IMG/VR virus record: IMGVR_UViG_3300042261_000916
Coordinates: 1-60,643 of that record
Length of the DNA: 60,643 nucleotides
Strand: one strand, 5' to 3'
Origin: a virus
Lineage: Duplodnaviria; Caudoviricetes
Part shown: positions 1,099 to 60,643 of the stretch, piece after piece
Position numbering within the stretch: position 1 is the first letter of the stretch
How the letters are laid out: the number at the start of each line of letters is the position of its first letter
Translations under genes and position numbers: made by a program
Notes under the pieces: generated by a model
Seen by the model: only the letters and a program-made list of their open reading frames with translations
Databases searched by the model: none
What the model was told of the DNA's origin: nothing

Positions 1099-1505
1099 TT
1101 GAAATAAAAGAGTTTGTATTTGATGTAGATTCATATGAGAATAATTTTTCTTATTCTTCGTTTGATGTAGTTAGAGATGCTATTGCCAAAGTGGAAGAAA
1201 TATTAAAGACTACTGATACCTCTAAAATTATATCTAACACTAATTTGAGTTGTATTATTACAAATAATTATAGACTTAGACCATCATACATCAAACCACA
1301 AATTGTTGGTAAATTTTCAAACATAGATGTTTTTATAGATCCTAAAATAAAAGACAATAAAATTCTATTTTATAACATAAAAGAACCAGAAATTATTCAA
1401 TCAGAAATAGATCCTTATGGTGAAGAGGACTGGGGCAATGAAGATGTTAAAGAAACTTTAATTTATACTTTAAATATAAAAGATACAAAAGGAAGATTGA
1501 CATAA
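1086..1505 (+). CDS. Mini major-capsid-protein-like fragment with internal DPYGEEDW tag; paralogue of 2093..2806
   Basis: IITN...VGKFSNIDVFIDP..DNKILFY and C-terminal YTLNIKDTKGRL mirror GNIGNMTIYVDAY..DNRILFY / HTLHVRDTNGVL of 2093..2806. Confidence 0.55.
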   Translation: MPDLIEIKEFVFDVDSYENNFSYSSFDVVRDAIAKVEEILKTTDTSKIISNTNLSCIITNNYRLRPSYIKPQIVGKFSNIDVFIDPKIKDNKILFYNIKEPEIIQSEIDPYGEEDWGNEDVKETLIYTLNIKDTKGRLT

Positions 1506-1506
1506 T

Positions 1507-1992
1507 ATGAAAACATTAACAGGAACATTATTCCAATTAGATGTTAAAAATCTAAATGGAAGAATATATCAAGATAATGATAATCTTAGGAAAAGTATTG
1601 AAGATTATAATAATAAACCAAGTAAATACGGACAAATAGGATTTCCGGAAAATGATGATTATTATGATCAGAGCATAAGAGAAATATCTCACACTGTAGA
1701 AAATGTTAGAATTGACGGAGATAGAGTCGTTGGCGATATAAGAATATTAAATACTCATAGCGGAAAGATTCTAAAAGAATTATTAGACGACGGAATACCA
1801 CACGTTTTTAGATCTAGGGCAATAGGACATACAAACGAAGACGGAACGGTTAATATTAAAAAAATATTCGCTTTCGACGCTATTCCAAAAAATATAGATT
1901 CCTTCGATATGTCAAATAAACCAAAAGAAAAAGAAATAAAAAGAATCTATTCAGACCAAGACCCATACGGTGAAGAAGACTGGGAAGATTGA
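1507..1992 (+). CDS. T4 gp21-like prohead protease paralogue, apparently inactive, with C-terminal DPYGEEDW
   Basis: DVKNLNGRIY, ISH.V..VRIDG..V.G.I.IL.T.SGKILK.L, SR..G match the gp21 family; GELxHP reads GQIGFP and GVSSRG reads VFRSRA. Confidence 0.75.
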   Translation: MKTLTGTLFQLDVKNLNGRIYQDNDNLRKSIEDYNNKPSKYGQIGFPENDDYYDQSIREISHTVENVRIDGDRVVGDIRILNTHSGKILKELLDDGIPHVFRSRAIGHTNEDGTVNIKKIFAFDAIPKNIDSFDMSNKPKEKEIKRIYSDQDPYGEEDWED

Positions 1993-2092
1993 TAAAAATG
2001 AGGGTATTCGTTTTTAAAAATATTATAACAATGCGGACAGATGGTGAGTACTTTCCATTTTTATCAATCAATATATAAAATAAAAATTGTAT

Positions 2093-2806
2093 ATGAAAAA
2101 TGAAGAAAAATTAAGAGAATTAGATGCCACGATTGATAATTATGAATCGATTTTAGTTGAAAGAGTGAGAGAGAATGGAAGTATAGCTTGTAAAGATCAA
2201 GGATTTGAAGATGTGTGTAATATGGTAAAAAGTCTTAATTGTGCCAAAAAACATTTAAATGACATTGATGATGATTTTAGCCCATATACTAATTCAAAGT
2301 TAGATCCATATGGAGAAGAAAATTGGGATGATGATGAACCAAAATCTTCATTGACTGAAAGAACTGTTAATAGTGATCTTTTTGGACCGAGAGTAAGACC
2401 CCAACAGATAGAAATAGGTGAAGAAACTGATACTGATAGTTATTTTGATGTTGATGGTATAGTTAATAACGCGAACGGTAGAATGACAACTATTCAAAGA
2501 TTGTTATTTAATAAAGTTCAGATAATACAAGCAAAATTTCAATGTACAAAAATTATAAGTAATGGTAATTTAATATCTGTTTTGCAGGATATAGCTGGTT
2601 ATACTCTAAACCCAGTGAGACAATTAAATAAAATTGATACATCTGTTCCATTTCCAATGGGCAATATTGGAAATATGACTATATATGTTGATGCTTACAT
2701 GAGATGGGATGATAATAGAATTCTTTTCTATGTAGATATTAATGCGGCTAAAGAAAATTTCATTCATACTCTACATGTTAGAGATACAAATGGAGTATTA
2801 ATATAA
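2093..2806 (+). CDS. DPYGEENW-tagged protein with C-terminal gp23-like capsid-protein fragment
   Basis: TIQR....K...IISNGNLISVLQDIAGY...PFPMGNIGNMTIYVDAYMRWDDNRIL resembles the C-terminal third of T4-like major capsid proteins. Confidence 0.6.
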   Translation: MKNEEKLRELDATIDNYESILVERVRENGSIACKDQGFEDVCNMVKSLNCAKKHLNDIDDDFSPYTNSKLDPYGEENWDDDEPKSSLTERTVNSDLFGPRVRPQQIEIGEETDTDSYFDVDGIVNNANGRMTTIQRLLFNKVQIIQAKFQCTKIISNGNLISVLQDIAGYTLNPVRQLNKIDTSVPFPMGNIGNMTIYVDAYMRWDDNRILFYVDINAAKENFIHTLHVRDTNGVLI

Positions 2807-2829
2807 TTAATATATAAAATAAAAAATAC

Positions 2830-2837
2830 AAGGAGGT
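2830..2837 (+). promoter_or_regulatory. Strong Shine-Dalgarno (AAGGAGGT) of phage rpsU
   Basis: AAGGAGGT 4 nt before ATG 2842; most other genes have only A-rich leaders. Confidence 0.75.
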
Positions 2838-2841
2838 TTAA

Positions 2842-4108: not shown

Positions 4109-4129
4109 TTAAAAATTTTCTGGATTATT

Positions 4130-4162
4130 AAAACCACTCAATTATGTTGAGTGGTTTTTTTT
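4130..4162 (+). terminator. Rho-independent terminator
   Basis: AAAACCACTCAA-ttatg-TTGAGTGGTTTT followed by a T run. Confidence 0.85.
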
Positions 4163-4188
4163 ATTTTTCTTTTTTTATATATAGCACC

Positions 4189-4545
4189 ATGAAAAACTAT
4201 GCTAATTTTTTAAATGAAGGAGAGATAAGAAGAGAAGGATTTTTCTCTATAAGGCAACTATCTCAAAAGTATGGAAATTTGGATCAATCACTATTGGCTG
4301 TTTATAAAAAGATAAAAGGCAAAGTGGTACAATTTACTCCTTTAGAACGCAATAAACCAGTATGGACTGAAATAAAAGAAGTATATTATAAAAGATATGT
4401 CAGAGAAGATGGGAAATTGGGGAATTTGTGGTTTTTTATAAACAAAAGTGGAAAAGAATTTCAATTGAATATAAATGATGTTATGCAAACATATGCTAAA
4501 GTAAATGAATTTGATCCTTATGGTGAAGAAGATTGGGAAAATTGA
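4189..4545 (+). CDS. Putative internal head protein (CTS-like leader, C-terminal DPYGEEDW)
   Basis: Start MKNYANFLNEG just after a TATATA box; ends DPYGEEDWEN. Confidence 0.7.
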   Translation: MKNYANFLNEGEIRREGFFSIRQLSQKYGNLDQSLLAVYKKIKGKVVQFTPLERNKPVWTEIKEVYYKRYVREDGKLGNLWFFINKSGKEFQLNINDVMQTYAKVNEFDPYGEEDWEN

Positions 4546-4996: not shown

Positions 4997-4999
4997 AGC

Positions 5000-6176: not shown

Positions 6177-6217
6177 ATAAAATTTTCAGAAGGTTCAAAT
6201 GATATTGAATGGTGATG

Positions 6218-7537
6218 ATGATAATTAAAAAATATAACAACTTCTTAAATGAAGGACTAATGTTGGATTTATTCGATTTTTTACATAAATTCAATAATCC
6301 TGTTATTGCCGAAGATGAACTCCGTAAAAAAGTGATTGGTAAAACAGTAGTGTGGTATCCTGTCGGTGGAGGTTCCACGTTGAAAAGACAAACTGTTGGT
6401 GATATAAGAATTGAAGATCATAAAGTATATTTCAACGGGTATCCCGTGGATCAAGATTTTTCAATAGAAATAGAAACGACAAAACAAAGTACATCGTCAG
6501 CACTACCAACAAAGAAGACACAAGGAAGTTGGAAACAACCTAAAACTTGGGAAATTATTGGTATTCCGTCGGGGGAAGTTATTTATGTTGATACTAAAGA
6601 ATTAAATATTTTGATAACAAAAGATCTTGTTAAATATCAAAGTTATGCTAAATATAGAGACGTAGAGTACAGAGAAATTTATATTTATAGAGATGAAAAG
6701 TATCACGATATAAAAAAATTCTTAAATCCAAATTATAAGAAACCAGAAAAATCAAATTATAAAGAAAAAACTAAATATCATATAGGAGATGTCATTTTAT
6801 GTCAAGGACAATCAGCTCATTCACAAGGATATGTGTTAAATCTAGATATGAGAGTTGGTAAAATTATTGATATGTACAAAGGGCCAAAAGAAACGGAATA
6901 TAGATATTTAATTTCTTTTATGAATAATTTTGATCCACATTTAGTTAATATAGGTGGAAACATAAATAAATTTTGTTGGTGGGTCAAGAAAGAAAATATC
7001 AAAGGTATTTATACAGGAGATCTTAAATTTCTTAAAACCATATCTGATGTAATGAATTTACTACAAAAAGAAGATTATATAGAAGAACACGAAATAGATG
7101 ACGCTTATCATATAAAACAATTATTTAAAGGCACTGATGGTGCAGTAACTTATGAAAGCGTATCTATTGAAAATACAAAAACAATTAAAGTAAAAGATAT
7201 AATAGAAGGTAAATATGGAGAATTTAAGGCGTTCGATGATGGAACAACAGGAATAGAATTTAAATGTAATTATGCTGATCTATATAAAAACAATCAAATT
7301 TGGATAGGAAAATATGATTGTAATATTTTGAGATTTGAAAGTAAAAATTCACAATGGTATAATGAAAGAAATTATGTAGGCACTATAATTTTAATTAATA
7401 AATATGACACTGGGAGATCTTATATGCCATTTGCAGTCAGAATAGATGATTATGCTATAATTGGTGTTCCAAAAGAAAAGAAACAAATATTTTCTTTACA
7501 CGATCCATACGGAGAGGAGGAATGGGATAATGATTAA
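6218..7537 (+). CDS. Multidomain putative internal protein, C-terminal DPYGEEEW
   Basis: MIIKKYNNFLNEG leader; SH3-like IGDVIL...GKII segment; terminal tag. Confidence 0.75.
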   Translation: MIIKKYNNFLNEGLMLDLFDFLHKFNNPVIAEDELRKKVIGKTVVWYPVGGGSTLKRQTVGDIRIEDHKVYFNGYPVDQDFSIEIETTKQSTSSALPTKKTQGSWKQPKTWEIIGIPSGEVIYVDTKELNILITKDLVKYQSYAKYRDVEYREIYIYRDEKYHDIKKFLNPNYKKPEKSNYKEKTKYHIGDVILCQGQSAHSQGYVLNLDMRVGKIIDMYKGPKETEYRYLISFMNNFDPHLVNIGGNINKFCWWVKKENIKGIYTGDLKFLKTISDVMNLLQKEDYIEEHEIDDAYHIKQLFKGTDGAVTYESVSIENTKTIKVKDIIEGKYGEFKAFDDGTTGIEFKCNYADLYKNNQIWIGKYDCNILRFESKNSQWYNERNYVGTIILINKYDTGRSYMPFAVRIDDYAIIGVPKEKKQIFSLHDPYGEEEWDND

Positions 7538-8876
7538 GAAATTCAACACATATATAAAAGAAAGTGATCAATGCTTTTATCCATCTGGCGATAGAATAGA
7601 AGTTGATGATATTGTAATATATAATATTACATCGAATACTCATCCAAATCTTAGATGGTATGATAGAAAATTGGCGATAATAACTGATATTGACAATAGT
7701 TATTTTAGTGGTGAATTTCCAATATCTATAAAGTTTATAGATGGAAATTTAAATTTGAGAGTAAATAAAAATTCTGTTAAAAGATATTCTAAATCCAAAA
7801 TAGATCCTTATAATGAAGAAGATTGGCAATTTAACGAAAAAAAAATAATATGTGAAGCAGATCCATATGGTGAAGAAGATTGGGATGTTCCAACAGTCGA
7901 CGGTCCAATTAATATTGGAGATAAAGTTAGAATAATTGATAAAAACAACGCTGCATATCAAATTCAATATCGTGATAGAGAAGTATTTACTAATAGTATG
8001 TTGAGTTATGATATTGAAGTTTTAGATATGTGGGAAACAGATGGCGGTAAGATTATTATAAAAGGAGATAATTTAAATTACTATGATGCTAGTAAATTTA
8101 AGAAATTACAAGAAAGTATTATAGAAGAAATTGAAATGGAAACTCCTCCAAGTATTTGCGGAGAAGATTATATAGAAGAATACGAATGCACCTTAAAAGA
8201 TAGATATAGAAATATTAAAACCGGTGAATTAAAGAGACTTGAAGAAATATTCGAAATACCAGCAAATTATTATCATGAAAAATATGTTGGAGTTTGGGAT
8301 GTTAATGGTAAATTTAAGATAATGAATTATATTAGACCTAATTGGTATCACGAATTTACAATAGATAATAAATTGAGATTTATAGAAAAGAATTTTAAGA
8401 GTAAATCGAGTCAAGTAGAAATATGTGTTGGGCCAGAGATAGAAAAAATAATGATAAATCATAAAAAGGGATATGAAGGTAAGGGTAAATATTATAACAT
8501 GAAAAACACCAATAGAGTAACAATAGATAAACAAAATATCAAAATTTGCAAAGTGTATAAATATTGTGAAGATTTTCGACTGATATTTGGTGGTAGAATT
8601 GTAGATGTTATAAATAATATATATCCGGAAGGTAAAGAAAAAGATCATTTCAAAGTTCCAGATAGATTTGATAGGTATAAAAGTTTGAATATAACAATAG
8701 GGGATTATTATTTATTGAATTTTGAAATAAAAGATTATGTAAAAGGAATATATAGAAATTATAGAGTGAATATGTTTGATACTATAAAATGCAGACCAAA
8801 AATTAAAAGAATCAATCCAGTCAACGATCCTTACGGTGAAGAAGATTGGGGTGATGAAATGATGTATGAGGATTAG
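7530..8876 (+). CDS. Multidomain putative internal polyprotein with 3 DPY(G/N)EEDW tags
   Basis: MIKKFNTYIKES leader; tags at 7803, 7860 and 8826; first domain paralogous to that of 11645..12352. Confidence 0.75.
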   Translation: MIKKFNTYIKESDQCFYPSGDRIEVDDIVIYNITSNTHPNLRWYDRKLAIITDIDNSYFSGEFPISIKFIDGNLNLRVNKNSVKRYSKSKIDPYNEEDWQFNEKKIICEADPYGEEDWDVPTVDGPINIGDKVRIIDKNNAAYQIQYRDREVFTNSMLSYDIEVLDMWETDGGKIIIKGDNLNYYDASKFKKLQESIIEEIEMETPPSICGEDYIEEYECTLKDRYRNIKTGELKRLEEIFEIPANYYHEKYVGVWDVNGKFKIMNYIRPNWYHEFTIDNKLRFIEKNFKSKSSQVEICVGPEIEKIMINHKKGYEGKGKYYNMKNTNRVTIDKQNIKICKVYKYCEDFRLIFGGRIVDVINNIYPEGKEKDHFKVPDRFDRYKSLNITIGDYYLLNFEIKDYVKGIYRNYRVNMFDTIKCRPKIKRINPVNDPYGEEDWGDEMMYED

Positions 8877-10827
8877 AAGATTAAATGAAGCTAAAGATCC
8901 TTTTAAGGATTTGAGAGATTATAGTATAAATTATATCTATGAAAGTAATTCACATGTCCTTGATAAAATTAAAATTACTTATATCGGATCTTATAAACGT
9001 TATAAAAAAAGAGAAACTAGATGGTCTGGGAATTTATATGAACCAGGAGAACCAATTGTTCCTACTTTCTCGCAGTATAAAAAATATTTAAATAATTTAT
9101 TTGTTAATAAACAATTAATATTTGTTCATTTTGATAACGATAAAGGCACATCATTTTTAGTGAAAACTAAAATAAAAGGAATTTCTATAGATAAAGATGG
9201 ATTTATAAAAAAATTAAAAGATGATGCTAGAGAATATATTTTCGATGATAGATTGGAAACAATTGATGTAGAAAAATATATTAATTTATTGAAAAATTTA
9301 ATAGGACAAAATATAAGTTTTAATAAATATTTATATCGTAAAAATCATAAAGATGTATTTGTAGATGATTTTCAATTGAAAAGAATTTATCAAAATAAGG
9401 ACGGTGAAATTATTTTTGAAAATGAAGAGGGAGAATCTTGTCATGTAAATATATTTGATCCTATATGTAAACGTGTAATTTTTACACCGGAAGATCCATA
9501 TGGTGAGGAGGATTGGGATATTAATGAGGATTACGAAGTAGATAAGAATAGATTAAGACAAATAAAATTTATAGGAGGCGAAGAATTAATAGATGTTATA
9601 ACAACGGGCGATGTTGATTTCTTAAATAATAATTTTACTGGATGGGCAAAAATGTATCCTGAATTAAGAACTTACATTTTCCATGTTATAAATTGGGAGA
9701 TAGACCCTAACGATAAAGTAAGATTTACTTATGATGGTTATATTCATGGCGAGTCTGTTAAAATTAATATAGGACCATCTAATTACGTATTAAAGAAAAC
9801 ACCAGAATTAACTATAACAATGTTTGAAGAAAAAGAACCAACAATTATGATAAATGAAAAAGATCCTTATGGAGAAGAAGACTGGAGCGAATATATGGAA
9901 AATGCGTCTTATCCAGATCCAGATCCTCTTAAAATGAGACACACAAACAAATCGTTAAGACATTCAGAAATAAGTGATATAAAGAAACAAAAAAATGTTA
10001 AAATACTCAACGACGAATTTATTGGATGGATAAGAATATTGCCTGAACTATTTGATTATTTTCTACATGTGGTGGAATGGGGAATAAGTGACGGTGTATT
10101 ATATACCAAATATGACGGATATGTTAACGGTCTGAAATTTGTTAGAAATTCAAGTGTTTATACTTATACATTAAAAGACTCAGAACAAATGATGATAACT
10201 GTTGTGGATGATGGAGATCCATTAATTAGAATAGATGATATGGATCCATATGGTGAAGAGGATTGGGATTATGAAGTATTTGAACAATTCTATGATAACG
10301 ATGACGATGTTTATGTGCCTATAAAATCTAAAGAGGAAAAGATGGCAGATATTAAAAGATCTTTGAAAAAGAATACAAGTGAATATCAAAGATTTGATCA
10401 ATATTTATTATTTGATAGACTTGGATTAGAAAGACTCGAAATTCTAAGAAATTTTTTAATAGGAAAAGTCATTGTAGTAGAACAAAACAATAAGAAAAAA
10501 ACTAGAACTAAAGGAAGAGTTTACGAAATTCGCTCAAGAAAAGTTGAAGACGAACAATTTTATCTAATAAGAATGGTAACTAAAGAAGGAGAAATTGAAT
10601 TATTTATACAAGGAAAAGATAGATTCAAAGTTAAAAGTCTAAATATTCCTAAAGTTACTATAGATCCTTACGGTGAAGAAGATTGGGAATTGATTGGTGA
10701 TATACCAGATGAACCTAAGAAAGAAGAAAAGAAAAAAACTACAAGTAAAAAAAGATATTTTAGTAAAGGCAAAGCTTGGATAGCTGATGATGCACCAATG
10801 GCAATTGCTAAACCAAAAAGAGTATGA
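8866..10827 (+). CDS. Modular polyprotein with 4 DPYGEEDW tags and two duplicated domains
   Basis: Tags at 9493, 9862, 10243 and 10663; repeat FxGW...PEL..Y..HV..W.I....YDGY..G. Confidence 0.8.
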   Translation: MRIRRLNEAKDPFKDLRDYSINYIYESNSHVLDKIKITYIGSYKRYKKRETRWSGNLYEPGEPIVPTFSQYKKYLNNLFVNKQLIFVHFDNDKGTSFLVKTKIKGISIDKDGFIKKLKDDAREYIFDDRLETIDVEKYINLLKNLIGQNISFNKYLYRKNHKDVFVDDFQLKRIYQNKDGEIIFENEEGESCHVNIFDPICKRVIFTPEDPYGEEDWDINEDYEVDKNRLRQIKFIGGEELIDVITTGDVDFLNNNFTGWAKMYPELRTYIFHVINWEIDPNDKVRFTYDGYIHGESVKINIGPSNYVLKKTPELTITMFEEKEPTIMINEKDPYGEEDWSEYMENASYPDPDPLKMRHTNKSLRHSEISDIKKQKNVKILNDEFIGWIRILPELFDYFLHVVEWGISDGVLYTKYDGYVNGLKFVRNSSVYTYTLKDSEQMMITVVDDGDPLIRIDDMDPYGEEDWDYEVFEQFYDNDDDVYVPIKSKEEKMADIKRSLKKNTSEYQRFDQYLLFDRLGLERLEILRNFLIGKVIVVEQNNKKKTRTKGRVYEIRSRKVEDEQFYLIRMVTKEGEIELFIQGKDRFKVKSLNIPKVTIDPYGEEDWELIGDIPDEPKKEEKKKTTSKKRYFSKGKAWIADDAPMAIAKPKRV

Positions 10828-11648
10828 AAGATTCTGTAATAAAAATAGAAGGAAGAGAACTCAAACCTTACGTTTGGAATTTATACAATGGACATAAGAC
10901 CAATGATATAGATTATTATTATACTCGTATGATGGAATCTGGTCTGAAGACAGAAGAAATAGGAAACATAGATGGATTATCAATGTTCCTTGTACAAAAT
11001 GATCACGAAAAAGGAAGACCAAACATTTTTATTATGGGAGGAGTTCACGGTGAAGAAACCGCCGGCCCTTGGGGAATATTGAATGTCATGATGAAATTAA
11101 AATTGATGAAGGTCAACGTAAATCTTTCTTTTATTCCTATATTCAATCCATATGGATTTAGTAAAGGTTTAAGATTTAATGGACAATTAAAATCTGTCAA
11201 TTCTGGGTATTTTAGAACTAAATCTGGAAAACAAGAATTAACTACAGAGGGTGTTATTTTCCAAAGAAACTTTATTAGAATTTGTGAACTCGCAAAAAAT
11301 GGATTTCTTTCTTGTCACGAAGATACAGACCAGGAGAATTTCTTTATTTATGAAGTTCACCATGATGCTAAACCAAGTTTTATTTGTAGAGAGTTACAAA
11401 CTATAGGATCTTATTATTTTGGTAAACAGAAAGATGGTGCAGTATATACTGGTGTTGTGAAAGATGGTGTTGTATTAAATGAAAAAGATGGAACAATAGA
11501 TGATTATCTTGTTAATGTTGGTAATATTCATAGAGCAATAACAACAGAAACTCCAGGTAAAGCTGATATTAATAAGAGAGTTTATGTTTATGAGCAAATC
11601 ATAACAAAATTCATAGAAATGTATAGTGCAGGAAATTTTTGGGAATGA
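10824..11648 (+). CDS. M14/AstE-AspA family Zn-carboxypeptidase-like protein
   Basis: GGVHGEE.AG, P..NPYG....R.N, LSCHED, TETP. Confidence 0.85.
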   Translation: MKDSVIKIEGRELKPYVWNLYNGHKTNDIDYYYTRMMESGLKTEEIGNIDGLSMFLVQNDHEKGRPNIFIMGGVHGEETAGPWGILNVMMKLKLMKVNVNLSFIPIFNPYGFSKGLRFNGQLKSVNSGYFRTKSGKQELTTEGVIFQRNFIRICELAKNGFLSCHEDTDQENFFIYEVHHDAKPSFICRELQTIGSYYFGKQKDGAVYTGVVKDGVVLNEKDGTIDDYLVNVGNIHRAITTETPGKADINKRVYVYEQIITKFIEMYSAGNFWE

Positions 11649-12352
11649 TAACGAAATTTATTAAATATAACGAAAATAAAAAACTTAGTGAAGATGATAT
11701 AGTAATCTTCCATTACGGTATTGTTCCTGAACATAGAACTCCAAATCCGACATTAAAACCTTATGATAAAAAGCCCGCTACGATTTTAGTCGCCGATTAT
11801 AGTGAATATCCAACAGTAATAGGAAGTCCTTTCTTAATAAGATTTATAGAAGATGGTAAAAAGGCTTGGGTTAATAGAGAATCTATAACTCCACATAATC
11901 CAAAAATAATAGTATCTCCTATAGATCCTTATGGAGAGGAAGATTGGTCTGTTGATGATGAAGATATAATTAAAGAAAAACTTAATTTTTTTAAGAAAAA
12001 GAAAAAAGCAGAACATGATTTTTCAGTTCATACAGAAGTCAATTTCATACCAAGAAACGATGGTGTTTATTATTTTCAGGCAGGATTGAACAGGATAAAT
12101 GATCATATGGGAATAGGTGAAGATCAATTCGGTAAAAAATGTAAAATTGTTAGAATATACGATGGATATTATGAAATTAAATTCGATAATCTCAAATATT
12201 CTTATACTTGTCGTATTGACAACTTATTGCCTTTGGATTTTTCTAAACATATTGAAAGAAGGAAGGAAATGTTGAATCTTCACAAGGATGAAGATCCTTA
12301 TGGTGAAGAAGTGTGGGAGAGTAATTCTGAAAATATTATCTATATAGATTAG
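11645..12352 (+). CDS. Putative internal protein, two SH3-like modules each ending in DPYGEE(D/V)W
   Basis: MITKFIKYNEN leader; tags at 11924 and 12293. Confidence 0.75.
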   Translation: MITKFIKYNENKKLSEDDIVIFHYGIVPEHRTPNPTLKPYDKKPATILVADYSEYPTVIGSPFLIRFIEDGKKAWVNRESITPHNPKIIVSPIDPYGEEDWSVDDEDIIKEKLNFFKKKKKAEHDFSVHTEVNFIPRNDGVYYFQAGLNRINDHMGIGEDQFGKKCKIVRIYDGYYEIKFDNLKYSYTCRIDNLLPLDFSKHIERRKEMLNLHKDEDPYGEEVWESNSENIIYID

Positions 12353-17053: not shown

Positions 17054-17686
17054 TTAAATATTGAATATATTTGCGTTAGGATCAAATAATTCCCTAGTTT
17101 TCGTAAACATTCTTTCTAAATCCATATTCTGTTTTTCTATATCTCTTTCAGATAATTCTCCATTCGACTCATCTTCCCATTCTTCTTCGCCGTATGGATC
17201 ATTCTCAGAATAAACTCTTTTAATTTCTTTAATCTTAAATGGTGGTTTAATACTACCATAAAATGATGGAACATGATCTTCGAGATCAAGCAGGTAGCGA
17301 ACATGGTGTATTACAAGATTTTTGTCTTCTATGGTATTTACTCCATGTCCATCTCTTTTTAATGTATTAAATCTATGTTCTCTTAATATATTTGTTAACC
17401 AATCATAATCTAGTTTATCTATTTCTAATCTAAACATTGGATCTCCATCTATTCTAGAGAATCCAATAAATTCAATCCAGTTTATTCTTTCTTTTCCACC
17501 GTTATGTTTATTTTCAAATAATTTAGGTTCAGCTTCTCCGTCTCTATCAAGAAGAATGAAACTTCTTCTTGATATTCCACCTAATTGTTCTTTAATGTCG
17601 AAATATTCTAATTGTTCACGAATATTTTTCCTAAATTGAGCAGCTTTACCTTTCCAATCTAATGATATTTTTATTATTGTTGCCAT
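17054..17686 (-). CDS. Hypothetical protein with DPYGEEEW tag
   Basis: KEIKRVYSENDPYGEEEWED. Confidence 0.7.
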   Translation of the reverse strand: MATIIKISLDWKGKAAQFRKNIREQLEYFDIKEQLGGISRRSFILLDRDGEAEPKLFENKHNGGKERINWIEFIGFSRIDGDPMFRLEIDKLDYDWLTNILREHRFNTLKRDGHGVNTIEDKNLVIHHVRYLLDLEDHVPSFYGSIKPPFKIKEIKRVYSENDPYGEEEWEDESNGELSERDIEKQNMDLERMFTKTRELFDPNANIFNI

Positions 17687-17687
17687 A

Positions 17688-18170
17688 TTAATTATCCCAA
17701 TTTTCTTCCCCGTATGGATCAAGTACAGGTATGAACTTTTGACCAACTGGTTTTATATCTTTTGTGAAATTTTCTAAATAACAAACTAATCTATTTAATC
17801 TTTCTTTTTTTGCTTCTAATCTTCTAGATATTTTTTTATGCCTTTCTATTCTTCGGCTTGTCATAAATAAATATCCTGTAAATTTACGATTAGAATCTTG
17901 TAGTTCTATAAATATATCTCTTAATTCCATTGCTATAACATTATAGGAATCGTAAATCTGACGGCTATTCGCTCCATATTCACCACGTATTGCTTTGGTG
18001 CTTATAGGTTGTAATTTATCAGCAATCACACGAATTGAATCAGATATAGAATCATATCTATCTTCAGTTTGCCTGTTTCTATAATGTCCTTGAACAGTTA
18101 AAATATAAAAGGGGAACTTGAAATAATTTTTGAAACTATTCCATTTCCTTTTTATGTCATTCCATTTCAT
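17688..18170 (-). CDS. Hypothetical protein, C-terminal DPYGEENW
   Basis: Ends VLDPYGEENWDN. Confidence 0.7.
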   Translation of the reverse strand: MKWNDIKRKWNSFKNYFKFPFYILTVQGHYRNRQTEDRYDSISDSIRVIADKLQPISTKAIRGEYGANSRQIYDSYNVIAMELRDIFIELQDSNRKFTGYLFMTSRRIERHKKISRRLEAKKERLNRLVCYLENFTKDIKPVGQKFIPVLDPYGEENWDN

Positions 18171-18194: not shown

Positions 18195-18527
18195 TTATTC
18201 CCAATTCTCCTCTCCATATGGATCTAATTCGTTATAAACTCTTGGTTTTGGATTATACACATCTTCTAAAACATTACTCATAAGATTTTTAAATCCTCTT
18301 GGTTTGCCTCCCATGATAATGGGAGTTTTATTTAACATGTGTTTTTCATAACTATCTGTTTTAATTATTCCAACGCAAAAATCACTCAAGCTAGCTCTAG
18401 TTATGGAATCTTGAATATCTTGATTCGATATTAAATCGGTATAATCTACAATATAAGGATTATAGAAAATATCTTCTTTCCCTGATGGAACTCCTTGATT
18501 TGATGTTATTATAGGCAAATTATTCAT
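18195..18527 (-). CDS. Hypothetical protein, C-terminal DPYGEENW
   Basis: Ends PRVYNELDPYGEENWE. Confidence 0.7.
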   Translation of the reverse strand: MNNLPIITSNQGVPSGKEDIFYNPYIVDYTDLISNQDIQDSITRASLSDFCVGIIKTDSYEKHMLNKTPIIMGGKPRGFKNLMSNVLEDVYNPKPRVYNELDPYGEENWE

Positions 18528-18870
18528 CCCATACCTCTTCTTCAAATGGGTCAATACTTTTTAAATTTTTCCTTATGGCTCTTACTTTATCAGGATCATC
18601 TATAAAATCATTTAGTTTCTTTTCTAATAATTTTATTAATTTCTTGCTTTCTTCCAATTCTTTTTCTAATTGATCTATCTTATCGCTACTGGTATAAGCC
18701 TTGTATGTTGTTGAATATTGATAATCATTCCAACTAGTATCTGTTCCAGTGGTTGTTGTTGACCAATATGATATTCCAGCAGTGATTGAGCTTCCTGATG
18801 TTGATGAGGTGCCACTTTTAGTGGTATAACCTATATACACATTATCTTTATATGTACCTAATTTTTTCAT
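18520..18870 (-). CDS. Ser/Thr-rich and coiled-coil protein, C-terminal DPFEEEVW variant tag
   Basis: Ends IDPFEEEVWDE; coiled coil-DPD-tag arrangement resembles 20875..21807. Confidence 0.7.
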   Translation of the reverse strand: MKKLGTYKDNVYIGYTTKSGTSSTSGSSITAGISYWSTTTTGTDTSWNDYQYSTTYKAYTSSDKIDQLEKELEESKKLIKLLEKKLNDFIDDPDKVRAIRKNLKSIDPFEEEVWDE

Positions 18871-20430: not shown

Positions 20431-20672
20431 AATAATTTACTTAAATAATGTATAAAACTAGCAAAATATGGATATACCATATACATGAAATAACATAATC
20501 CTGTTATAACCATATATAACATGAAAATAAATAACCAATTTATGGTCATCCATCTTGGAAATTTATTTTCTATGTTTTTATAATAAATAATTGAAACTAT
20601 TATAGATAATAATAACAGTATTGTACCTATTCCTCCAACTATTAAATGTATCATAATTAATTCTCCCAACAT
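20427..20672 (-). CDS. Two-TM membrane protein
   Basis: Two hydrophobic stretches. Confidence 0.65.
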   Translation of the reverse strand: MLGELIMIHLIVGGIGTILLLLSIIVSIIYYKNIENKFPRWMTINWLFIFMLYMVITGLCYFMYMVYPYFASFIHYLSKLL

Positions 20673-20887
20673 TCTTCGCCATAGGGATCTAATTCGCTAA
20701 AGACTCTTTTGATCTCTTTGGTGTTTTTATTGTTTATATAATTTTCTAGATTTTCTAGAATGTTTCTATTAATCTCCTCAGTTAGAATTTTTTCAAGCCT
20801 TTCGCTAATATCTATGCCAAAAGATTTTAGATCTTCTACTTGTTCTCTTGTAAATTTACAATTTAATTGTCTTTCTATCGTTCCCAA
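20657..20887 (-). CDS. Small protein, C-terminal DPYGEECW
   Basis: EIKRVFSELDPYGEECWEN; the segment FT.EQVEDLKSFGIDI..L..IL.EEINR.IL is reminiscent of a gp23 capsid segment. Confidence 0.65.
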   Translation of the reverse strand: MGTIERQLNCKFTREQVEDLKSFGIDISERLEKILTEEINRNILENLENYINNKNTKEIKRVFSELDPYGEECWEN

Positions 20888-50932: not shown

Positions 50933-50941
50933 CTTTTATTT

Positions 50942-57862: not shown

Positions 57863-57872
57863 TGTTAAAAAC

Positions 57873-57901
57873 AATGGAGAGAACTTCGGTTCTCTCCATT
57901 T
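57873..57901 (+). terminator. Stable hairpin with C(UUCG)G tetraloop after the sheath gene
   Basis: AATGGAGAGAAC-TTCG-GTTCTCTCCATT; short U tract. Confidence 0.75.
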
Positions 57902-57920
57902 AATTAAAAAAAATTGAAAT

Positions 57921-58289: not shown

Positions 58290-58362
58290 AAAAAATATAT
58301 CGAGGAACAGTAGTAACATTAATATATACTAGTAAAGATATAAAAAAATAATAATAATAAAC

Positions 58363-58962
58363 ATGGGTTTAGGACATTTTACCAACGTAGCAACAGCCAC
58401 TAATATGTGGGAACCAGTTTTTAAGAGTTTATTTGAAATTCAAATAGATTTACCACCATTAGTAGCAGGCAATTTGGGTAGCGGTATTAGAGCTCTTTTA
58501 CTAGAGAACGCCACAAGCGTACCATTACCATCATATCCAAAAATTGAAGTAAAACCTCAAAGATTTAAATACTCTACACGTATCTATCCAACCCTACCAG
58601 GTCAGACACACTTAACAGATCAACAGATTAAGTTTAATCTCAACGAATCTGTTAATGTGCCTCAGAATGTTAGTGGTGTTGTAAACGGTAGAGTCCCTAT
58701 CTTTAGAGCAATAAAAGACTGGTACGATCTAATTTGGAACAACGAAACAGGTCAACTTAACTACAAAGGAAACTTAGTGGGTACAGTTACTATAGACCAA
58801 CACGATAAGGAAGGTCTAGTTGTGAGACGTGTTATTTGGCATAACGCTTTTATAACAAGTTTCTCCGGATGGGACGAAGGTCTTAACTGGGAATCAGTAA
58901 CAGAAATCCACGATCTAACCGCGAGCTTCGCGCTGGACTACTTTGAGGATTTTTATTACTGA
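58363..58962 (+). CDS. Tail tube protein (T4 gp19-like)
   Basis: Follows the sheath gene; EPV...LFEI.I.LP, Q.FKYSTR, W.DL..N..TG...YK....G...I.Q.D..G, L.W. Confidence 0.85.
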   Translation: MGLGHFTNVATATNMWEPVFKSLFEIQIDLPPLVAGNLGSGIRALLLENATSVPLPSYPKIEVKPQRFKYSTRIYPTLPGQTHLTDQQIKFNLNESVNVPQNVSGVVNGRVPIFRAIKDWYDLIWNNETGQLNYKGNLVGTVTIDQHDKEGLVVRRVIWHNAFITSFSGWDEGLNWESVTEIHDLTASFALDYFEDFYY

Positions 58963-58977
58963 AAATCAATAAGTTAC

Positions 58978-59008
58978 AAAAATATAGAACAATTGTTCTA
59001 TATTTTTT
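58978..59008 (+). terminator. Rho-independent terminator
   Basis: AAAAATATAGAACA-at-TGTTCTATATTTTTT. Confidence 0.75.
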
Positions 59009-59054
59009 GCCTAAAAATGGCTCAGACTACTGAGAAGAAAAAAAAGAATATGTT

Positions 59055-59882
59055 ATGGAACAAAAATTATGTAGAATATGTGGCAAATTAAAAGATATAG
59101 ATAATTTTGCTAAAAATGATAAAATGAAGGACGGACACAGAAATGAATGTAATGATTGTAAGAATAAATTATATAATGATAAAAATAAAATAAGAAATCG
59201 TAATTTAGAAAAAGAGATTAAAACCGAAGGAAATAAAGTTTGCTGTATTTGTGGAGAATTTAAGTCTTTATTAGAATATCATGTAAAAAGAGGTACTCCT
59301 GATGGTCGTCGACGTGAATGTAAAGAATGTGTCAAAGAAATTCAAAAGAAATATAAGGAAGTTCCGGGGTTCAAAGAAAAACAAAAAGAATATGATAAGA
59401 ATAGATATGAGGAAATAAAAGATAAAATTCTTGAAAGAAAAAAAGAATATCATATTGAGAATCAAGAAAAAATTTCAATCAAGAAAAAAGAATATAGAAA
59501 TACTCCCGAATTTAAGATACAAGATAGAAAATGGAGATCTGAAAATAAAGAGCGTTTGGCGCAACTTCAAGCGAATTATAGAAAAAAATATCCCCACATT
59601 ATCGCCTGGCGTTCAGTATTATACTCCACTCTAAAACGTATCAATACTCCAAAAGAAGGACACACAATATCTCTTTTAGGTTATTCTGCATTAGATTTAA
59701 AAAATCACATTCAATCTCTTTTTGCGGATGGTATGTCTTGGGATAATCACGGGAAATGGCATATTGACCACATTACTGCAGTAGAAAATTTTCCAGATGA
59801 TGCGGATATAAAAGAAGTTTGTGCTTTAGAAAATTTACAACCTTTGTGGGCGTTTGAAAATTTATCTAAGAATAAATTTTAA
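59055..59882 (+). CDS. HNH homing endonuclease with two N-terminal Zn-finger repeats
   Basis: CRIC...CNDC, CCIC...CKEC; GMSWDNHGKWHIDHI...ENLQPLWA.EN..K. Confidence 0.9.
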   Translation: MEQKLCRICGKLKDIDNFAKNDKMKDGHRNECNDCKNKLYNDKNKIRNRNLEKEIKTEGNKVCCICGEFKSLLEYHVKRGTPDGRRRECKECVKEIQKKYKEVPGFKEKQKEYDKNRYEEIKDKILERKKEYHIENQEKISIKKKEYRNTPEFKIQDRKWRSENKERLAQLQANYRKKYPHIIAWRSVLYSTLKRINTPKEGHTISLLGYSALDLKNHIQSLFADGMSWDNHGKWHIDHITAVENFPDDADIKEVCALENLQPLWAFENLSKNKF

Positions 59883-59893
59883 TATATAGTTTT

Positions 59894-60643
59894 ATGATTA
59901 AAATCTTTGAACAATTTAAGGAAAGTGATGAAATTTGGTCATGTGTAGATGGTCAAGGAAAAGTTGATACTTCAACTTTATATGACATGGCTGGTCGTGG
60001 GCGTGGAGGAAAAGAAAAACAGATAAAACTTGAGTATTATCTTAAAACCATATTAGTTGATCAATTGTGCGAATTTAATGGAGCAACAGTAGATGAATTG
60101 GAATCTCTATATAATAGGAATTTAATGGGTAAGCATGTTATAAAAATTAAAGATGTTCATGTTATTAAAGAAGGAGATAGAAGAAGTGCTATATATTTTA
60201 TAGATGATAAAAATAATATTTATTTTGCTGGTTGTTCTGATATAAAAATAGTTGATGAAAATTTCGCCGAAATTAAAAAGAAAAAAGATGAAGAATTAAA
60301 TAGAAAAAGGGAAGAAATTAGACTAAGACATATACATCATGATCCTTACGGTGAAGAGAATTGGATGGAGGAAAATTATATTTTTGAACAATTCATCGAT
60401 GTTGATCCATATGGTGAGGAAAATTGGGAAGTTGATATTGATGATATTGAAGTTGGTGACGGTTTAAAAGACTCAAGTTGGGAAGCAGGAGCATGTTTAA
60501 TTATAACAAGAATAAAAGGGGAATTAATTGAGTATGATAAAAATAAATATTTTAAAGGATGGAAGCATTTTATAACACGACGTCAATTAAAAAAATGGTT
60601 AGATGATGGTAGTGCTACCATTGAAAAAAGAGTTAATGAACAA
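59894..60643 (+). CDS. CTS-leader polyprotein with 2 DPYGEENW tags (3'-partial)
   Basis: Hand-translated, open to the window end; MIKIFEQFKES; tags at 60341 and 60404. Confidence 0.8.
   Translation, partial: MIKIFEQFKESDEIWSCVDGQGKVDTSTLYDMAGRGRGGKEKQIKLEYYLKTILVDQLCEFNGATVDELESLYNRNLMGKHVIKIKDVHVIKEGDRRSAIYFIDDKNNIYFAGCSDIKIVDENFAEIKKKKDEELNRKREEIRLRHIHHDPYGEENWMEENYIFEQFIDVDPYGEENWEVDIDDIEVGDGLKDSSWEAGACLIITRIKGELIEYDKNKYFKGWKHFITRRQLKKWLDDGSATIEKRVNEQ

What the first reader, a model, noticed from the sequence alone, without database searches (positions are those of the whole stretch)
1410..60427. A genome-wide peptide tag, DPYGEE(D/E/N)W, on 20 phage proteins
Seen: 28 in-frame copies in 20 ORFs. 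Plus strand: 1410, 1960, 2303, 4513, 7502, 7803, 7860, 8826, 9493, 9862, 10243, 10663, 11924, 12293, 31638, 32812, 33401, 35092, 35227, 38561, 60341, 60404. Minus strand: 17200, 17720, 18224, 18552, 20689, 20907. One more copy is out of frame at 34677. Four copies are variants (DPYNEEDW, DPFEEEVW, DPYDEENW, DPYGEEID). Codons vary at synonymous sites (gatccttatggtgaagaggactgg, gacccatacggtgaagaagactgg, gatccatacggagaggaggaatgg), so the peptide rather than the DNA is conserved. It is often within ~10 aa of the C-terminus or at a domain end. Two upstream flavours recur: (K/P)R(I/V)(F/Y)(S/N)(E/D)x-DPYGEE and basic helix-H-x-x-x-DPYGEE. Core enzymes and the sheath, tube and baseplate proteins lack it. 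Inference: a phage-wide short linear motif or address label read by one hub protein (packaging or ejection receptor, compartment scaffold, protease adaptor or host target). I know of no described phage system with this motif.
Basis: partly seen in the sequence, partly recalled or inferred. Interest (0 to 1): 0.95.

Follow-up and report, generated by a model that had tools for sequence, protein, structure and literature searches.

The report
Portable DPYGEExW tag, huge phage
About a quarter of the genes in this piece of a giant lake phage carry the same invariant eight-residue acidic peptide on a floppy end or linker; it behaves like an undescribed address label, probably for loading proteins into the phage head, but its reader is still unknown.

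Summary
All 29 copies lie at the stated coordinates: 28 in frame in 20 ORFs, and one (34677) cut off its gene by a frame break. Chance expects about 0.0005 copies, and 50 simulations gave none.

Conservation is at the peptide level. Nucleotide identity is 0.81 in the motif and 0.32-0.41 in the flanks, with free synonymous variation. With tags masked, carriers are unrelated. They diverge faster than their neighbours.

The window is syntenic with the 735-kb phage LR756501, which has 109 copies on 86 of 1018 ORFs. The tag is confined to one sub-clade. Sister phages of 640 and 676 kb have none. The 640-kb sister uses a different, basic C-terminal tag.

Carriers are enriched for cut-outs of head proteins, including a protease paralogue that lacks the conserved His. 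They are also enriched for an N-terminal leader resembling the T4 capsid targeting sequence.

Best reading: a docking label, most likely for head loading (0.4). No reader was found. A clade-specific M14-like peptidase in the densest tag cluster is an untested lead.

This scan had already noted the tag on other DNA. I found no paper on it.

The parts
1086..1505 (+). Carrier ORF, 139 aa. Tag at 1410-1433 (aa 109-116).
   Evidence: Paralogue of the C-terminal half of ORF 2087-2806 (BLASTP E 1e-8), which is itself a capsid-protein fragment.
1507..1992 (+). Carrier ORF, 161 aa. Prohead-protease-fold paralogue lacking the conserved His, ending ...KRIYSDQDPYGEEDWED. Tag at 1960-1983.
   Evidence: phrog_207 head maturation protease, E 7e-19; Pfam S77 weak. 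jackhmmer to the main protease-scaffold, E 2e-48. The His of the conserved D-H-P is replaced by F. The sister-phage orthologue has no tail.
2087..2806 (+). Carrier ORF, 239 aa. Tag at 2303-2326 in an N-terminal extension. Residues 115-214 copy capsid-protein positions 432-542.
   Evidence: phmmer with the LR756501 capsid protein, E 1.8e-18. The LR orthologue lacks both the extension and the tag.
4144..4545 (+). Carrier ORF, 133 aa. C-terminal tag at 4513-4536 (...DPYGEEDWEN stop).
   Evidence: No Pfam family. An antisense ORF 4342-5001 overlaps it and has no relative in LR756501.
6209..7537 (+). Carrier ORF, 442 aa. C-terminal tag at 7502-7525.
   Evidence: The LR orthologue (42% identity) lacks the tagged tail.
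7461..8876 (+). Carrier ORF, 471 aa (start uncertain). Tags at 7803-7826 (DPYNEEDW), 7860-7883 and 8826-8849.
   Evidence: No Pfam family.
8866..10827 (+). Four-tag 'beads on a string' ORF, 653 aa. Tags at 9493-9516, 9862-9885, 10243-10266 and 10663-10686.
   Evidence: In 10 homologues the tags are almost the only invariant columns, and the number of tags per homologue varies. AlphaFold gives confident modules 229-322, 358-449 and 488-592; all four tags lie in segments with pLDDT under 50.
10824..11648 (+). Not a carrier. M14 / AstE-AspA-like zinc peptidase, 274 aa, in the middle of the densest tag cluster. Candidate tag-processing enzyme; a lead only.
   Evidence: Pfam PF00246 27.7 bits and PF24827 28.3 bits, both over their cut-offs. 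The HGEE, H165 and E242 columns are conserved. AlphaFold pLDDT 88; best PDB matches 2qvp, 3b2y and 3ieh. Present in the tagged 243-kb contig; no match in 4 untagged contigs.
11639..12352 (+). Carrier ORF, 237 aa. Tags at 11924-11947 and 12293-12316.
   Evidence: No LR756501 hit.
17054..17746 (-). Carrier ORF, 230 aa. Tag at 17200-17177. Residues 23-107 copy capsid-protein positions 166-245.
   Evidence: phmmer E 2e-8, jackhmmer E 8e-29. The LR orthologue is also tagged.
17688..18170 (-). Carrier ORF, 160 aa. C-terminal tag at 17720-17697.
18195..18554 (-). Carrier ORF, 119 aa. C-terminal tag at 18224-18201.
18520..18870 (-). Carrier ORF, 116 aa. C-terminal variant tag DPFEEEVW at 18552-18529.
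20657..20887 (-). Carrier ORF, 76 aa. C-terminal tag at 20689-20666. Weak similarity to capsid-protein positions 368-418.
   Evidence: Pfam Gp23 E 1.5e-4, under the cut-off. jackhmmer E 2e-4.
20875..21807 (-). Carrier ORF, 310 aa. C-terminal variant tag DPYDEENW at 20907-20884.
31110..32267 (+). Carrier ORF, 385 aa. Internal tag at 31638-31661.
   Evidence: The LR orthologue (28% identity) has the tag at the matching place.
32275..32856 (+). Carrier ORF, 193 aa. Tag at 32812-32835, 6 aa before the stop.
32807..33772 (+). Carrier ORF, 321 aa. Internal tag at 33401-33424.
34430..34721 (+). Gene of 94 codons (34430-34714) with leader MIKNFHKY. Its C-terminal tag (34677-34700, stop at 34721) lies one frame off.
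   Evidence: The LR gene at the syntenic place ends ...LDPYGEEVWDD in frame. Contigs of 3 runs from 2 studies show the same letters with no indel; two of the runs may be the source of this DNA.
34684..35574 (+). Carrier ORF, 296 aa. Tags at 35092-35115 and 35227-35250 (variant DPYGEEID, no Trp).
38363..38920 (+). Carrier ORF, 185 aa. Internal tag at 38561-38584.
   Evidence: The LR orthologue has the tag at the same place.
59894..60643 (+). Carrier ORF, at least 250 aa, running off the contig. Leader MIKIFEQF. Tags at 60341-60364 and 60404-60427.

Best explanation
DPYGEE-x-W, usually followed by two acidic or amide residues, is a portable short linear motif of one sub-clade of the largest known phages. 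It is displayed on flexible C-termini, on inter-module linkers, or just behind an N-terminal leader. It sits on many small, unrelated, fast-evolving proteins.

I infer that one common partner binds it, so that it works as an address or docking label. The most likely address is the assembling head (the prohead core): tagged proteins would be co-assembled into the capsid as internal or ejected proteins, as the capsid targeting sequence (CTS) does for the T4 internal proteins.

Shown: the motif, peptide-level selection, portability, placement on floppy segments, the clade limit, the enrichment on head-protein cut-outs, and the association with a CTS-like leader.

Inferred: that a single reader exists, and that the destination is the head.
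For: 1. Invariance against a diverging background.
- In 10 homologues of ORF 8866-10827 (20-46% identity) the invariant columns are almost only two of the tags.
- Window carriers have a median 38% identity to their LR756501 counterparts, against 64% for non-carriers. On identity times coverage the Mann-Whitney p is 0.002.

2. Portability. 87 LR756501 carriers fall into 85 BLASTP clusters once tags are masked. Among the 20 window carriers only one pair is related.

3. Floppy placement. The four tags of ORF 8866-10827 all lie in segments with pLDDT under 50. Three of them start 8-11 residues after a confident module.

4. Link to the head.
- ORF 1507-1992 has the prohead-protease fold (phrog_207 E 7e-19; jackhmmer E 2e-48).
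- The His that is conserved in all 3 main proteases is replaced in all 3 small paralogues.
- The tagged tail is present in the 2 tagged genomes and absent from the orthologue of the untagged sister phage.
- In Salmonella phage SPN3US the C-terminal propeptide of the prohead protease is proposed to target it to the prohead core (PMC7411985, passages).

5. Cut-outs of head proteins.
- Window ORFs 2087-2806 and 17054-17746 copy pieces of the capsid protein clearly; 20657-20887 does so weakly.
- ORF 1086-1505 does so indirectly, as a paralogue of 2087-2806.
- In LR756501, 6 of 15 small proteins that copy a piece of the capsid protein, portal or protease-scaffold are tagged, against 80 of 1000 others (odds ratio 7.7, p 8e-4).

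6. CTS-like leader.
- The N-terminal leader MI[KR]x[FY]xx[FYW] stands on 30 of 1018 LR756501 proteins, where 0.16 are expected. 14 of those 30 carry the tag (odds ratio 11, p 1.6e-8).
- In 17 LR756501 proteins the tag lies within 30 residues of the start.
- The leader has the K-x-aromatic-x-x-F spacing of the T4 CTS MKTYQEFIAE (PMC8442874, passage).

7. The T4 precedent. T4 internal proteins are a highly diverse set with only a conserved CTS to encapsidate them into the scaffolding core (PMC3012670, passage).
Against: - No reader was identified.
- The main capsid protein, the protease-scaffold fusion and the portal of LR756501 carry no tag. Nothing shows that they bind it.
- LR756501 carriers also match enzyme families not expected in a head: CCA-adding enzyme, GNAT, deaminase, methyltransferase and phosphoribosyltransferase. 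They also match tail-sheath and collagen-like fibre families.
- In the window, five tagged genes flank the baseplate-wedge gene.
- 14 LR756501 proteins have both the CTS-like leader and the tag. If the leader already does the targeting, the tag may serve another step, such as retention, ejection or a role in the host.
- The leader's likeness to the T4 CTS is a pattern match over 7 residues, not homology shown by a test.
- The enrichment on head-protein cut-outs rests on 15 proteins.
- There are no proteomic or expression data for this uncultured phage.
Confidence: 0.4

Rival explanations
1. The tag is a docking label, but the hub is not the head. It could be another phage machine or a host protein, for example a chaperone, a takeover hub or a compartment. 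Tagged proteins would be gathered or regulated there.
For: - Carriers include enzymes of tRNA and nucleotide metabolism and tail-type proteins.
- An Hsp70 gene in LR756501 is flanked by carriers on both sides.
- About 8% of the LR756501 proteome is tagged. This is my own judgement: I recall far fewer CTS-bearing proteins in T4.
Against: - Hsp70 also occurs in an untagged relative (G005, 0 tags in 159 kb), so it does not co-vary with the tag.
- A scan of 185,579 bacterial and archaeal species genomes found 72 stretches with one match each and none with several. That is near my own rough chance estimate of about 70. A host-wide use of the motif is therefore not seen.
- The head-derived carriers and the CTS-like leader point elsewhere.
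Confidence: 0.22
2. The tag is the recognition element of a clade-specific peptide-editing enzyme set. The M14/AstE-like zinc peptidase of this window (10824-11648), perhaps together with the RimK-like ATP-grasp ligase of LR756501, would trim or extend the acidic end or the Glu-Glu of the tag, as the tubulin-tail enzymes do (that comparison is recalled).
For: - The peptidase is intact: the HGEE, H165 and E242 columns are conserved, and the model has pLDDT 88 with an M14 fold.
- It is 72-79% conserved among tagged genomes.
- It has no match in 4 untagged contigs, two of them at least 98% complete.
- It lies in the densest tag region: 12 tags within 10 kb in LR756501 (39 of 1018 genes have as many) and 10 in G004 (15 of 287). 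In the window, 20 of the 29 tags lie within 10 kb of it (my count from the coordinates).
- All 4 IMG/VR loci with a close orthologue hold 10-12 tags.
- The RimK-like gene has the same distribution. In LR756501 it is followed by two tagged genes.
Against: - 139 LR756501 genes share this distribution, so it is weak evidence.
- The three genomes are syntenic here, so the location counts as one observation.
- Residues after the Trp are not uniformly acidic (EN, DK, SY, EV and others).
- 110 of 170 tags in three genomes are internal, out of reach of a carboxypeptidase unless they are first cut.
- Homologues of 26-34% identity sit in other phages without tags, and no ATP-grasp family is among the 25 commonest neighbour families.
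- The nearest solved structures have no known function.
Confidence: 0.12
3. The tag is an extended cleavage site of the prohead protease (cut after G-E-E). It would split multi-module proteins into pieces and remove leaders.
For: - G-E-E fits the small-residue-x-Glu motifs of T4-type proteases: AXE in SPN3US (PMC7411985, table note); the T4 and phiKZ motifs are recalled.
- There are multi-tag 'polyproteins' with one tag after each module.
- The protease paralogue itself ends in a tag.
Against: - 39 of 60 C-terminal tags end exactly two residues after the Trp. A cut there would remove only about 4 residues.
- A three-residue site does not explain seven invariant positions.
- The sister phage has an orthologous main protease but no such motif.
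- Cleavage and docking are not exclusive, so this may be an added feature rather than a rival.
Confidence: 0.1
4. There is no common reader. The peptide is a self-contained structural or physico-chemical element, such as a helix cap, a metal site or a solubility tail, that spread by copying of gene ends.
For: - The identical octapeptide is a buried, conserved part of the enolase TIM barrel in Lactobacillaceae, so it can be a purely structural element.
- The two recurrent upstream flavours suggest spread by copying.
Against: - The tag lies in low-confidence linkers and ends, not inside folded modules.
- It occurs at N-termini, C-termini and internal sites of unrelated folds.
- Seven positions are at least 97% fixed over 128 copies, which is more than a solubility tail needs.
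Confidence: 0.06

Closest known systems
Capsid targeting sequence (CTS, MKTYQEFIAE) of the phage T4 internal proteins IPI-III and Alt
   Same: A short shared peptide on otherwise diverse, fast-changing proteins. It interacts with the prohead core and so loads them into the head (PMC3012670, PMC7411985 and PMC8442874, passages). This phage has a T4-type capsid protein, portal and protease. 14 of 30 proteins with a CTS-like leader also carry the tag.
   Different: The T4 CTS is N-terminal, about 10 residues, not acidic, and is cut off by gp21. The tag here is acidic and has a different sequence. It is mostly C-terminal or internal and marks about 8% of a 1018-ORF proteome.
C-terminal propeptide of giant-phage prohead proteases (SPN3US gp245)
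   Same: It is a C-terminal extension of a T4-type prohead protease, proposed to target the enzyme into the prohead core (PMC7411985, abstract and passages). Here the protease-fold paralogue carries the tag on an added C-terminal tail.
   Different: The gp245 propeptide is 64 residues, specific to that protein, and removed by self-cleavage. Here the tail is an 8-10-residue label shared with dozens of unrelated proteins, and the carrier lacks the conserved His.
Basic-helix C-terminal tags of sister huge phages (RKxK[IL]xx[IL][FL]; KRTxLID in LR756501)
   Same: Same design: a shared end-label on many small, unrelated proteins and on cut-outs of capsid and scaffold proteins. It stands on 58 of 969 proteins of the 640-kb sister phage and on about 20 proteins of LR756501. 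Earlier notes of this scan describe it in other clades.
   Different: The chemistry is opposite (a basic amphipathic helix against an acidic turn with Tyr and Trp). The helix tag is strictly C-terminal and less invariant. LR756501 has both tags, so they are probably read by different partners.
Encapsulin cargo-loading peptides (recalled, not checked in a call)
   Same: A short C-terminal peptide on unrelated cargo proteins that docks on the inner face of an HK97-fold shell.
   Different: Those peptides are hydrophobic, there are few cargo types per shell, and it is not a phage system. No binding of the tag to the capsid protein has been shown.

Membership tests
T4-type capsid targeting sequence system | A shared short peptide on otherwise unrelated proteins | tested here: met
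   87 LR756501 carriers fall into 85 clusters with tags masked. Among the 20 window carriers only one pair is related.
T4-type capsid targeting sequence system | An N-terminal position of about 10-20 residues, removed by the prohead protease | tested here: not met
   In LR756501 only 17 tags lie within 30 residues of the start; 36 are C-terminal and 54 lie more than 50 residues from the C-terminus. Cleavage cannot be tested here. A separate leader MI[KR]x[FY]xx[FYW] does fit the N-terminal pattern.
T4-type capsid targeting sequence system | The peptide is sufficient to load a foreign protein into the head | not testable with these tools
   This needs a GFP-tag encapsidation test or virion proteomics.
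T4-type capsid targeting sequence system | The phage has a T4-type head module (gp23-like capsid protein, gp20-like portal, gp21-like protease) | tested here: met
   In the syntenic relative LR756501: PF07068 82.9 bits, phrog_207 E 5e-30 and PF07230 E 1e-69. These genes are not on the window's contig.
Prohead protease S77 / phrog_207 (for ORF 1507-1992) | Sequence membership in the family | tested here: met
   phrog_207 E 7.4e-19. jackhmmer to the main protease, E 2e-48. Pfam S77 scores 21.5 bits, under the 27-bit cut-off.
Prohead protease S77 / phrog_207 (for ORF 1507-1992) | Conserved catalytic His and Ser | tested here: not met
   D-H-P in the 3 main proteases reads G-F-P here, G-Y-P in LR756501 and G-N-P in the sister phage. 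That this His is the catalytic one is inferred from its conservation and from the paper's statement that the mechanism needs conserved Ser and His.
M14 / AstE-AspA zinc peptidases (for ORF 10824-11648) | Family score over the cut-off, zinc ligands and catalytic Glu | tested here: met
   PF00246 27.7 bits (cut-off 21.6) and PF24827 28.3 bits (cut-off 25). H75 and E78 are invariant; H165 and E242 are at least 90% conserved in 28 sequences. Fold TM-score 0.87 to 2qvp. The assignment of ligand roles is recalled from carboxypeptidase A.
DNA-level repeat (REP/MITE-like, or a recombination site) | Nucleotide identity that extends into the flanks, with no synonymous bias | tested here: not met
   Flank identity is 0.32-0.41 against 0.81 in the motif. 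Variation lies at third codon positions.
Paralogous domain family with a conserved end | Similarity of the carriers outside the motif | tested here: not met
   both BLASTP only. More remote fold-level kinship among some modules is not excluded.

The most novel reading that the evidence does not exclude
The largest known phages run a proteome-scale addressing system with several separate peptide labels: the acidic DPYGEExW, a basic C-terminal helix (KRTxLID / RKxKIxxIF) and an N-terminal MIKKFxxFE leader. Together these sort a tenth or more of all their proteins to dedicated readers. The sorted proteins include deliberate cut-outs of the phage's own capsid, portal and protease proteins. The labels differ between sister clades, which implies co-evolving readers. 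The acidic label may be edited by a clade-specific peptidase and ATP-grasp ligase pair.
Probability: 0.2. Interest if true: 0.9.

Novelty: new variant of a known kind. Interest (0 to 1): 0.78.

Why it matters
If the tag is an address label, it is a handle on how a 700-kb phage organises hundreds of accessory proteins. It would say which proteins travel in the virion or gather at one hub.

It could also serve as a ready-made 10-residue tag for loading foreign cargo into large capsids.

It marks about 86 proteins of unknown function in the largest known phage as one functional class. It also ties them to the odd mini-genes that copy pieces of the capsid, portal and protease proteins.

The contrast between tagged and untagged sister genomes gives a short, testable list of candidate readers.

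Tried and rejected
DNA repeat: rejected.

Paralogous family: rejected at the BLASTP level.

Complex prediction: capsid protein (G004, alignment A5) plus M14 peptidase (A3) plus Zn plus the 42-residue tagged tail of ORF 1507-1992 gave 'no answer'. The score was 0.00 against a mark of 0.32, and the controls were not run. This is no evidence either way.

Hsp70 as reader: dropped, because it also occurs in the untagged G005.

Neighbours of distant M14 homologues: 100 ORFs from 15 loci were scanned. No ATP-grasp family is among the 25 commonest families and there is no recurrent partner.

A de novo count of C-terminal words then found that phage's own variant.

Exact 6-mers in the sister phage: only true paralogue families.

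PDB sequence search with ORF 1507-1992: nothing relevant, best E 0.69.

Foldseek with the four-tag model: only sliding-clamp chains, at probability 0.35 or less and TM-score 0.1 or less. Not relied on.

Host mimicry: 72 single matches in bacterial and archaeal genomes, near my own rough chance estimate of about 70. About 20 of them are enolase.

Programmed frameshift at 34677: considered. I saw no known slippery site, so it stays open.

Sequencing runs: no RNA holder listed.

Paper searches:
- 'DPYGEE' anywhere gave 3 unrelated papers.
- 'huge phages' + 'conserved motif' + 'C-terminal' + 'capsid' gave 2 unrelated papers.
- The main text of PMC7162821 has no 'targeting sequence', 'peptide tag' or 'internal head'.
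- Supplements were closed and may hold annotations that I could not see.

Full report
THE OBSERVATION

A six-frame search finds 29 copies of DP[YF]xEE at exactly the coordinates given. 28 lie in 20 ORFs. The copy at 34677 lies in a third frame.

The count is far beyond chance. Amino-acid frequencies predict 0.0005 copies. 50 second-order Markov simulations gave none. The 359 other orderings of the six letters total 16, all of them overlaps of the tag itself.

Nucleotide identity is 0.81 in the 24-nt motif and 0.32-0.41 in the flanks. Synonymous codons vary freely. The peptide is conserved, not the DNA.

8 of the 28 in-frame copies end 1-3 residues before the stop, and 11 end within 11 residues.

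WHERE THE WINDOW COMES FROM

The window is a whole 60.6-kb contig with 29% G+C. It is syntenic, gene for gene, with positions 540.6-601.8 kb of LR756501, a 735,411-bp uncultured phage.

A 735-kb genome is described as the largest phage genome in PMC7162821 (abstract and passages). The same paper places its genomes of more than 634 kb in the Mahaphage clade and predicts Bacteroidetes hosts for them. That LR756501 is that very genome is my recollection; the length matches.

The window encodes these untagged proteins:
- glycosyltransferases
- thymidylate synthase
- an RNA ligase
- a baseplate-wedge protein
- a 1298-residue tail sheath
- a tube-like protein

THE TAG IN RELATIVES

LR756501 has 109 DNA matches to the degenerate pattern and none to the reversed control. 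In my own ORF call, 86 of 1018 ORFs carry 100 strict copies. Their positions are:
- 36 end within 3 residues of the C-terminus.
- 54 lie more than 50 residues from the C-terminus.
- 17 lie within 30 residues of the start.

Over three genomes, 39 of 60 C-terminal copies end exactly two residues after the Trp. The working unit is therefore about DPYGEExW plus two residues.

Over 128 copies, seven positions are at least 97% fixed. The flanks carry only weak preferences: K-R-[VI]-[FIY]-S-[ED]-[LI] before the tag and acidic residues after it.

PORTABILITY AND SELECTION

With tags masked, 87 LR756501 carriers form 85 BLASTP clusters. Among the 20 window carriers only one pair is related.

Carriers diverge fast. 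Their median identity to the LR756501 counterpart is 38%, against 64% for non-carriers, and 4 of 19 have no hit at all. Orthologues nevertheless keep the tag at the same place.

In 10 homologues of the four-tag ORF 8866-10827, the invariant columns are almost only two of the tags, and the number of tags per homologue varies.

The AlphaFold model of that ORF has confident modules at 229-322, 358-449 and 488-592. All four tags lie in segments with pLDDT under 50, three of them just after a confident module. The first 193 residues are poorly modelled, because the alignment has only 10 rows.

CLADE LIMIT

Around 68 IMG/VR relatives of the capsid protein, tags occur only where that protein is at least 77% identical to LR756501's. 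There are 14 tags in 228 kb, in 8 of 13 such loci. There are none in 808 kb from 55 loci at 72% identity or less.

Whole contigs confirm this:

| Contig | Size | Completeness | Capsid-protein identity | Tags |
|---|---|---|---|---|
| G001 | 676 kb | 98% | 61% | 0 |
| G002 | 640 kb | complete | 63% | 0 |
| G004 | 243 kb | listed as 100% (CheckV), no end repeats | 84% | 38 |

G002 is not label-free. 58 of its 969 proteins end in a basic helix motif, [RK][KR]x[KR][IL]xx[ILV][ILFY]. That motif is absent from the C-termini of LR756501, G004 and the window.

LR756501 has, besides the acidic tag, a related helix tag, KRTxLIDxML, on about 20 small proteins. The window holds one of these, ORF 25003-25344.

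Earlier notes of this scan describe helix tags on capsid-fragment mini-genes in other huge phages. That lead made me look for one here.

LINK TO THE HEAD

ORF 1507-1992 has the prohead-protease fold. LR756501 has a main 807-residue protease-scaffold fusion next to its capsid-protein gene, and a small second copy that is the window's orthologue.

All three main proteases keep D-H-P and S-S-R. All three small copies have lost the His.

The small copy of the untagged phage G002 ends with the fold. The two from tagged genomes have a tail of about 30 further residues ending in the tag.

Profile searches show that these phages keep many small ORFs that copy pieces of the capsid protein, the portal (Pfam Portal_T4) or the protease-scaffold. 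In the window:
- ORFs 2087-2806 and 17054-17746 are clear capsid-protein cut-outs.
- ORF 20657-20887 is a weak one.
- ORF 1086-1505 is one indirectly, as a paralogue of 2087-2806.
- All four are tagged.

In LR756501, 6 of 15 such proteins are tagged, against 80 of 1000 others (p 8e-4).

A leader MI[KR]x[FY]xx[FYW] stands at 30 LR756501 N-termini, where 0.16 are expected. 14 of the 30 are tag carriers (p 1.6e-8). 12 of the 30 continue with [LIVM][FYW]E.

The leader shares the K-x-aromatic-x-x-F spacing of the T4 CTS. The T4 cleavage rule, a cut after L/I-x-E, is recalled.

READER CANDIDATES

139 untagged LR756501 genes have a G004 relative and no G002 relative. Among the most conserved is the window's ORF 10824-11648, an intact M14/AstE-like zinc peptidase.

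That gene lies in the densest tag cluster of all three genomes. It has no match in four untagged contigs.

A RimK-like ATP-grasp gene of LR756501 has the same distribution. In LR756501 it is followed by two carriers.

The link is suggestive but weak:
- The list of candidates is long.
- The location counts as one syntenic observation.
- The residues after the Trp are not uniformly acidic.
- Most tags are internal.
- Distant homologues live in phages without tags.

The single complex job gave no answer and is not used as evidence.

OTHER CHECKS

The frame break at 34677 is present without variation in contigs of three runs from two studies. Two of these runs may be the source of this DNA. The LR756501 gene at the same place carries the tag in frame. 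The 29th copy is therefore a C-terminal tag detached by a real or population-fixed frameshift.

A scan of 185,579 prokaryote species genomes found 72 single matches.
- About 20 are enolases of Lactobacillaceae and two candidate phyla. There ...IISIEDPYGEEDW... is part of the TIM barrel.
- Four short contigs binned as Bacteroidetes, Bacteroidales or Hyphomicrobiales end an ORF in ...RIFSEIDPYGEEDWEN or ...RVFSALDPYGEEDWEEN. They look like mis-binned phage fragments.

VERDICT

The tag is real, strongly selected, portable and lineage-specific. I found no paper that describes it.

A docking label for head loading is the best-supported reading (0.4). The more general claim, a label read by some common partner, I hold at about 0.75.

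The scan had noted the tag before on other DNA. The following come from my own calls:
- the clade boundary
- the different tag of the sister phage, and the second tag in LR756501
- the loss of the conserved His in the tagged protease copy
- the enrichment on head-protein cut-outs
- the association with the leader
- the peptidase lead
- the enolase identity

I cannot tell how much of this the earlier reports also hold, because only a few lines of each were shown.

Noticed in passing
window 25003-25344 (+); LR756501 215-223 kb, 274-278 kb and 672-675 kb; G002 genome-wide: There is a second, basic C-terminal helix tag. ORF 25003-25344 ends ...IRRTELIDKMLKNN, like about 20 small LR756501 proteins (KRTxLIDxML). 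The untagged 640-kb sister phage has RKxK[IL]xx[IL][FL] within 8 residues of the end of 58 of 969 proteins.
   Followed up: partly
window 16643-17053, 34430-34714 and 59894-60643 (N-termini): An N-terminal leader MI[KR]x[FY]xx[FYW] (MIKSFDQF, MIKNFHKY, MIKIFEQF). It stands on 30 of 1018 LR756501 proteins against 0.16 expected, is strongly associated with the DPYGEE tag, and resembles the T4 CTS.
   Followed up: partly
window 1086-1505, 2087-2806, 17054-17746 and 20657-20887; LR756501 and G002, many places: Small ORFs copy pieces of the phage's own capsid protein, portal and protease-scaffold. They are scattered over the genomes of both tagged and untagged huge phages. Their function is unknown. 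Earlier notes of this scan report the same design in other clades.
   Followed up: partly
window 10824-11648 (+): An intact M14/AstE-like zinc peptidase, 72-79% conserved among tagged genomes, with no match in four untagged relatives. Its nearest structures are Shewanella 'putative metallopeptidases' of unknown function.
   Followed up: partly
L200 3784-5067 (-) and about 20 other loci: The octapeptide DPYGEEDW, with I-S two to four residues before it, is identical to a conserved internal stretch of the enolase TIM barrel in Lactobacillaceae, Saccharibacteria and WWE3. This may be coincidence, or a hint that the tag began as a cut-out of enolase.
   Followed up: partly
LR756501 86972-89503 (-), outside the window: A RimK-like ATP-grasp gene lies beside a 291-residue class II aminoacyl-tRNA-synthetase-core gene, directly upstream of two tagged genes. 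Neither gene has a relative in the untagged sister phage G002 by BLASTP, and RimK is also absent from G001.
   Followed up: partly
window 34600-34730: The frame break that detaches the tag from gene 34430-34714 is identical in contigs of three runs from two studies. I did not settle whether it is a fixed mutation or a recoding site.
   Followed up: partly
window 8866-10827 (model residues 229-592): The three confident modules of the four-tag protein give only sliding-clamp and PCNA chains in Foldseek. Probabilities are 0.35 or less and TM-scores very low, so this is a weak hint of clamp-like domains.
   Followed up: no
L157, L213 and L221 (about 3.3 kb each) and L181: Short contigs binned as Bacteroidetes, Bacteroidales or Hyphomicrobiales MAGs end an ORF in ...RIFSEIDPYGEEDWEN or ...RVFSALDPYGEEDWEEN. 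They are probably mis-binned fragments of this phage lineage.
   Followed up: no
window 52893-53816 (-) and 59055-59882 (+): Homing-endonuclease-like and endonuclease VII/HNH-like ORFs flank the sheath and tube genes.
   Followed up: no
window, six-frame translation; place not located: The words SSPYGS (10 times), SQSSSP, GTSGTS and GSSGSS are frequent in the six-frame translation, but no called gene holds more than two copies of SPYG. They may be off-frame readings of the collagen-like repeat gene 47456-48628.
   Followed up: no
window 4342-5001 (-): A 219-codon antisense ORF overlaps the tagged gene 4144-4545 and ORF 4505-4996. It has no relative in LR756501 and is probably not a gene.
   Followed up: no
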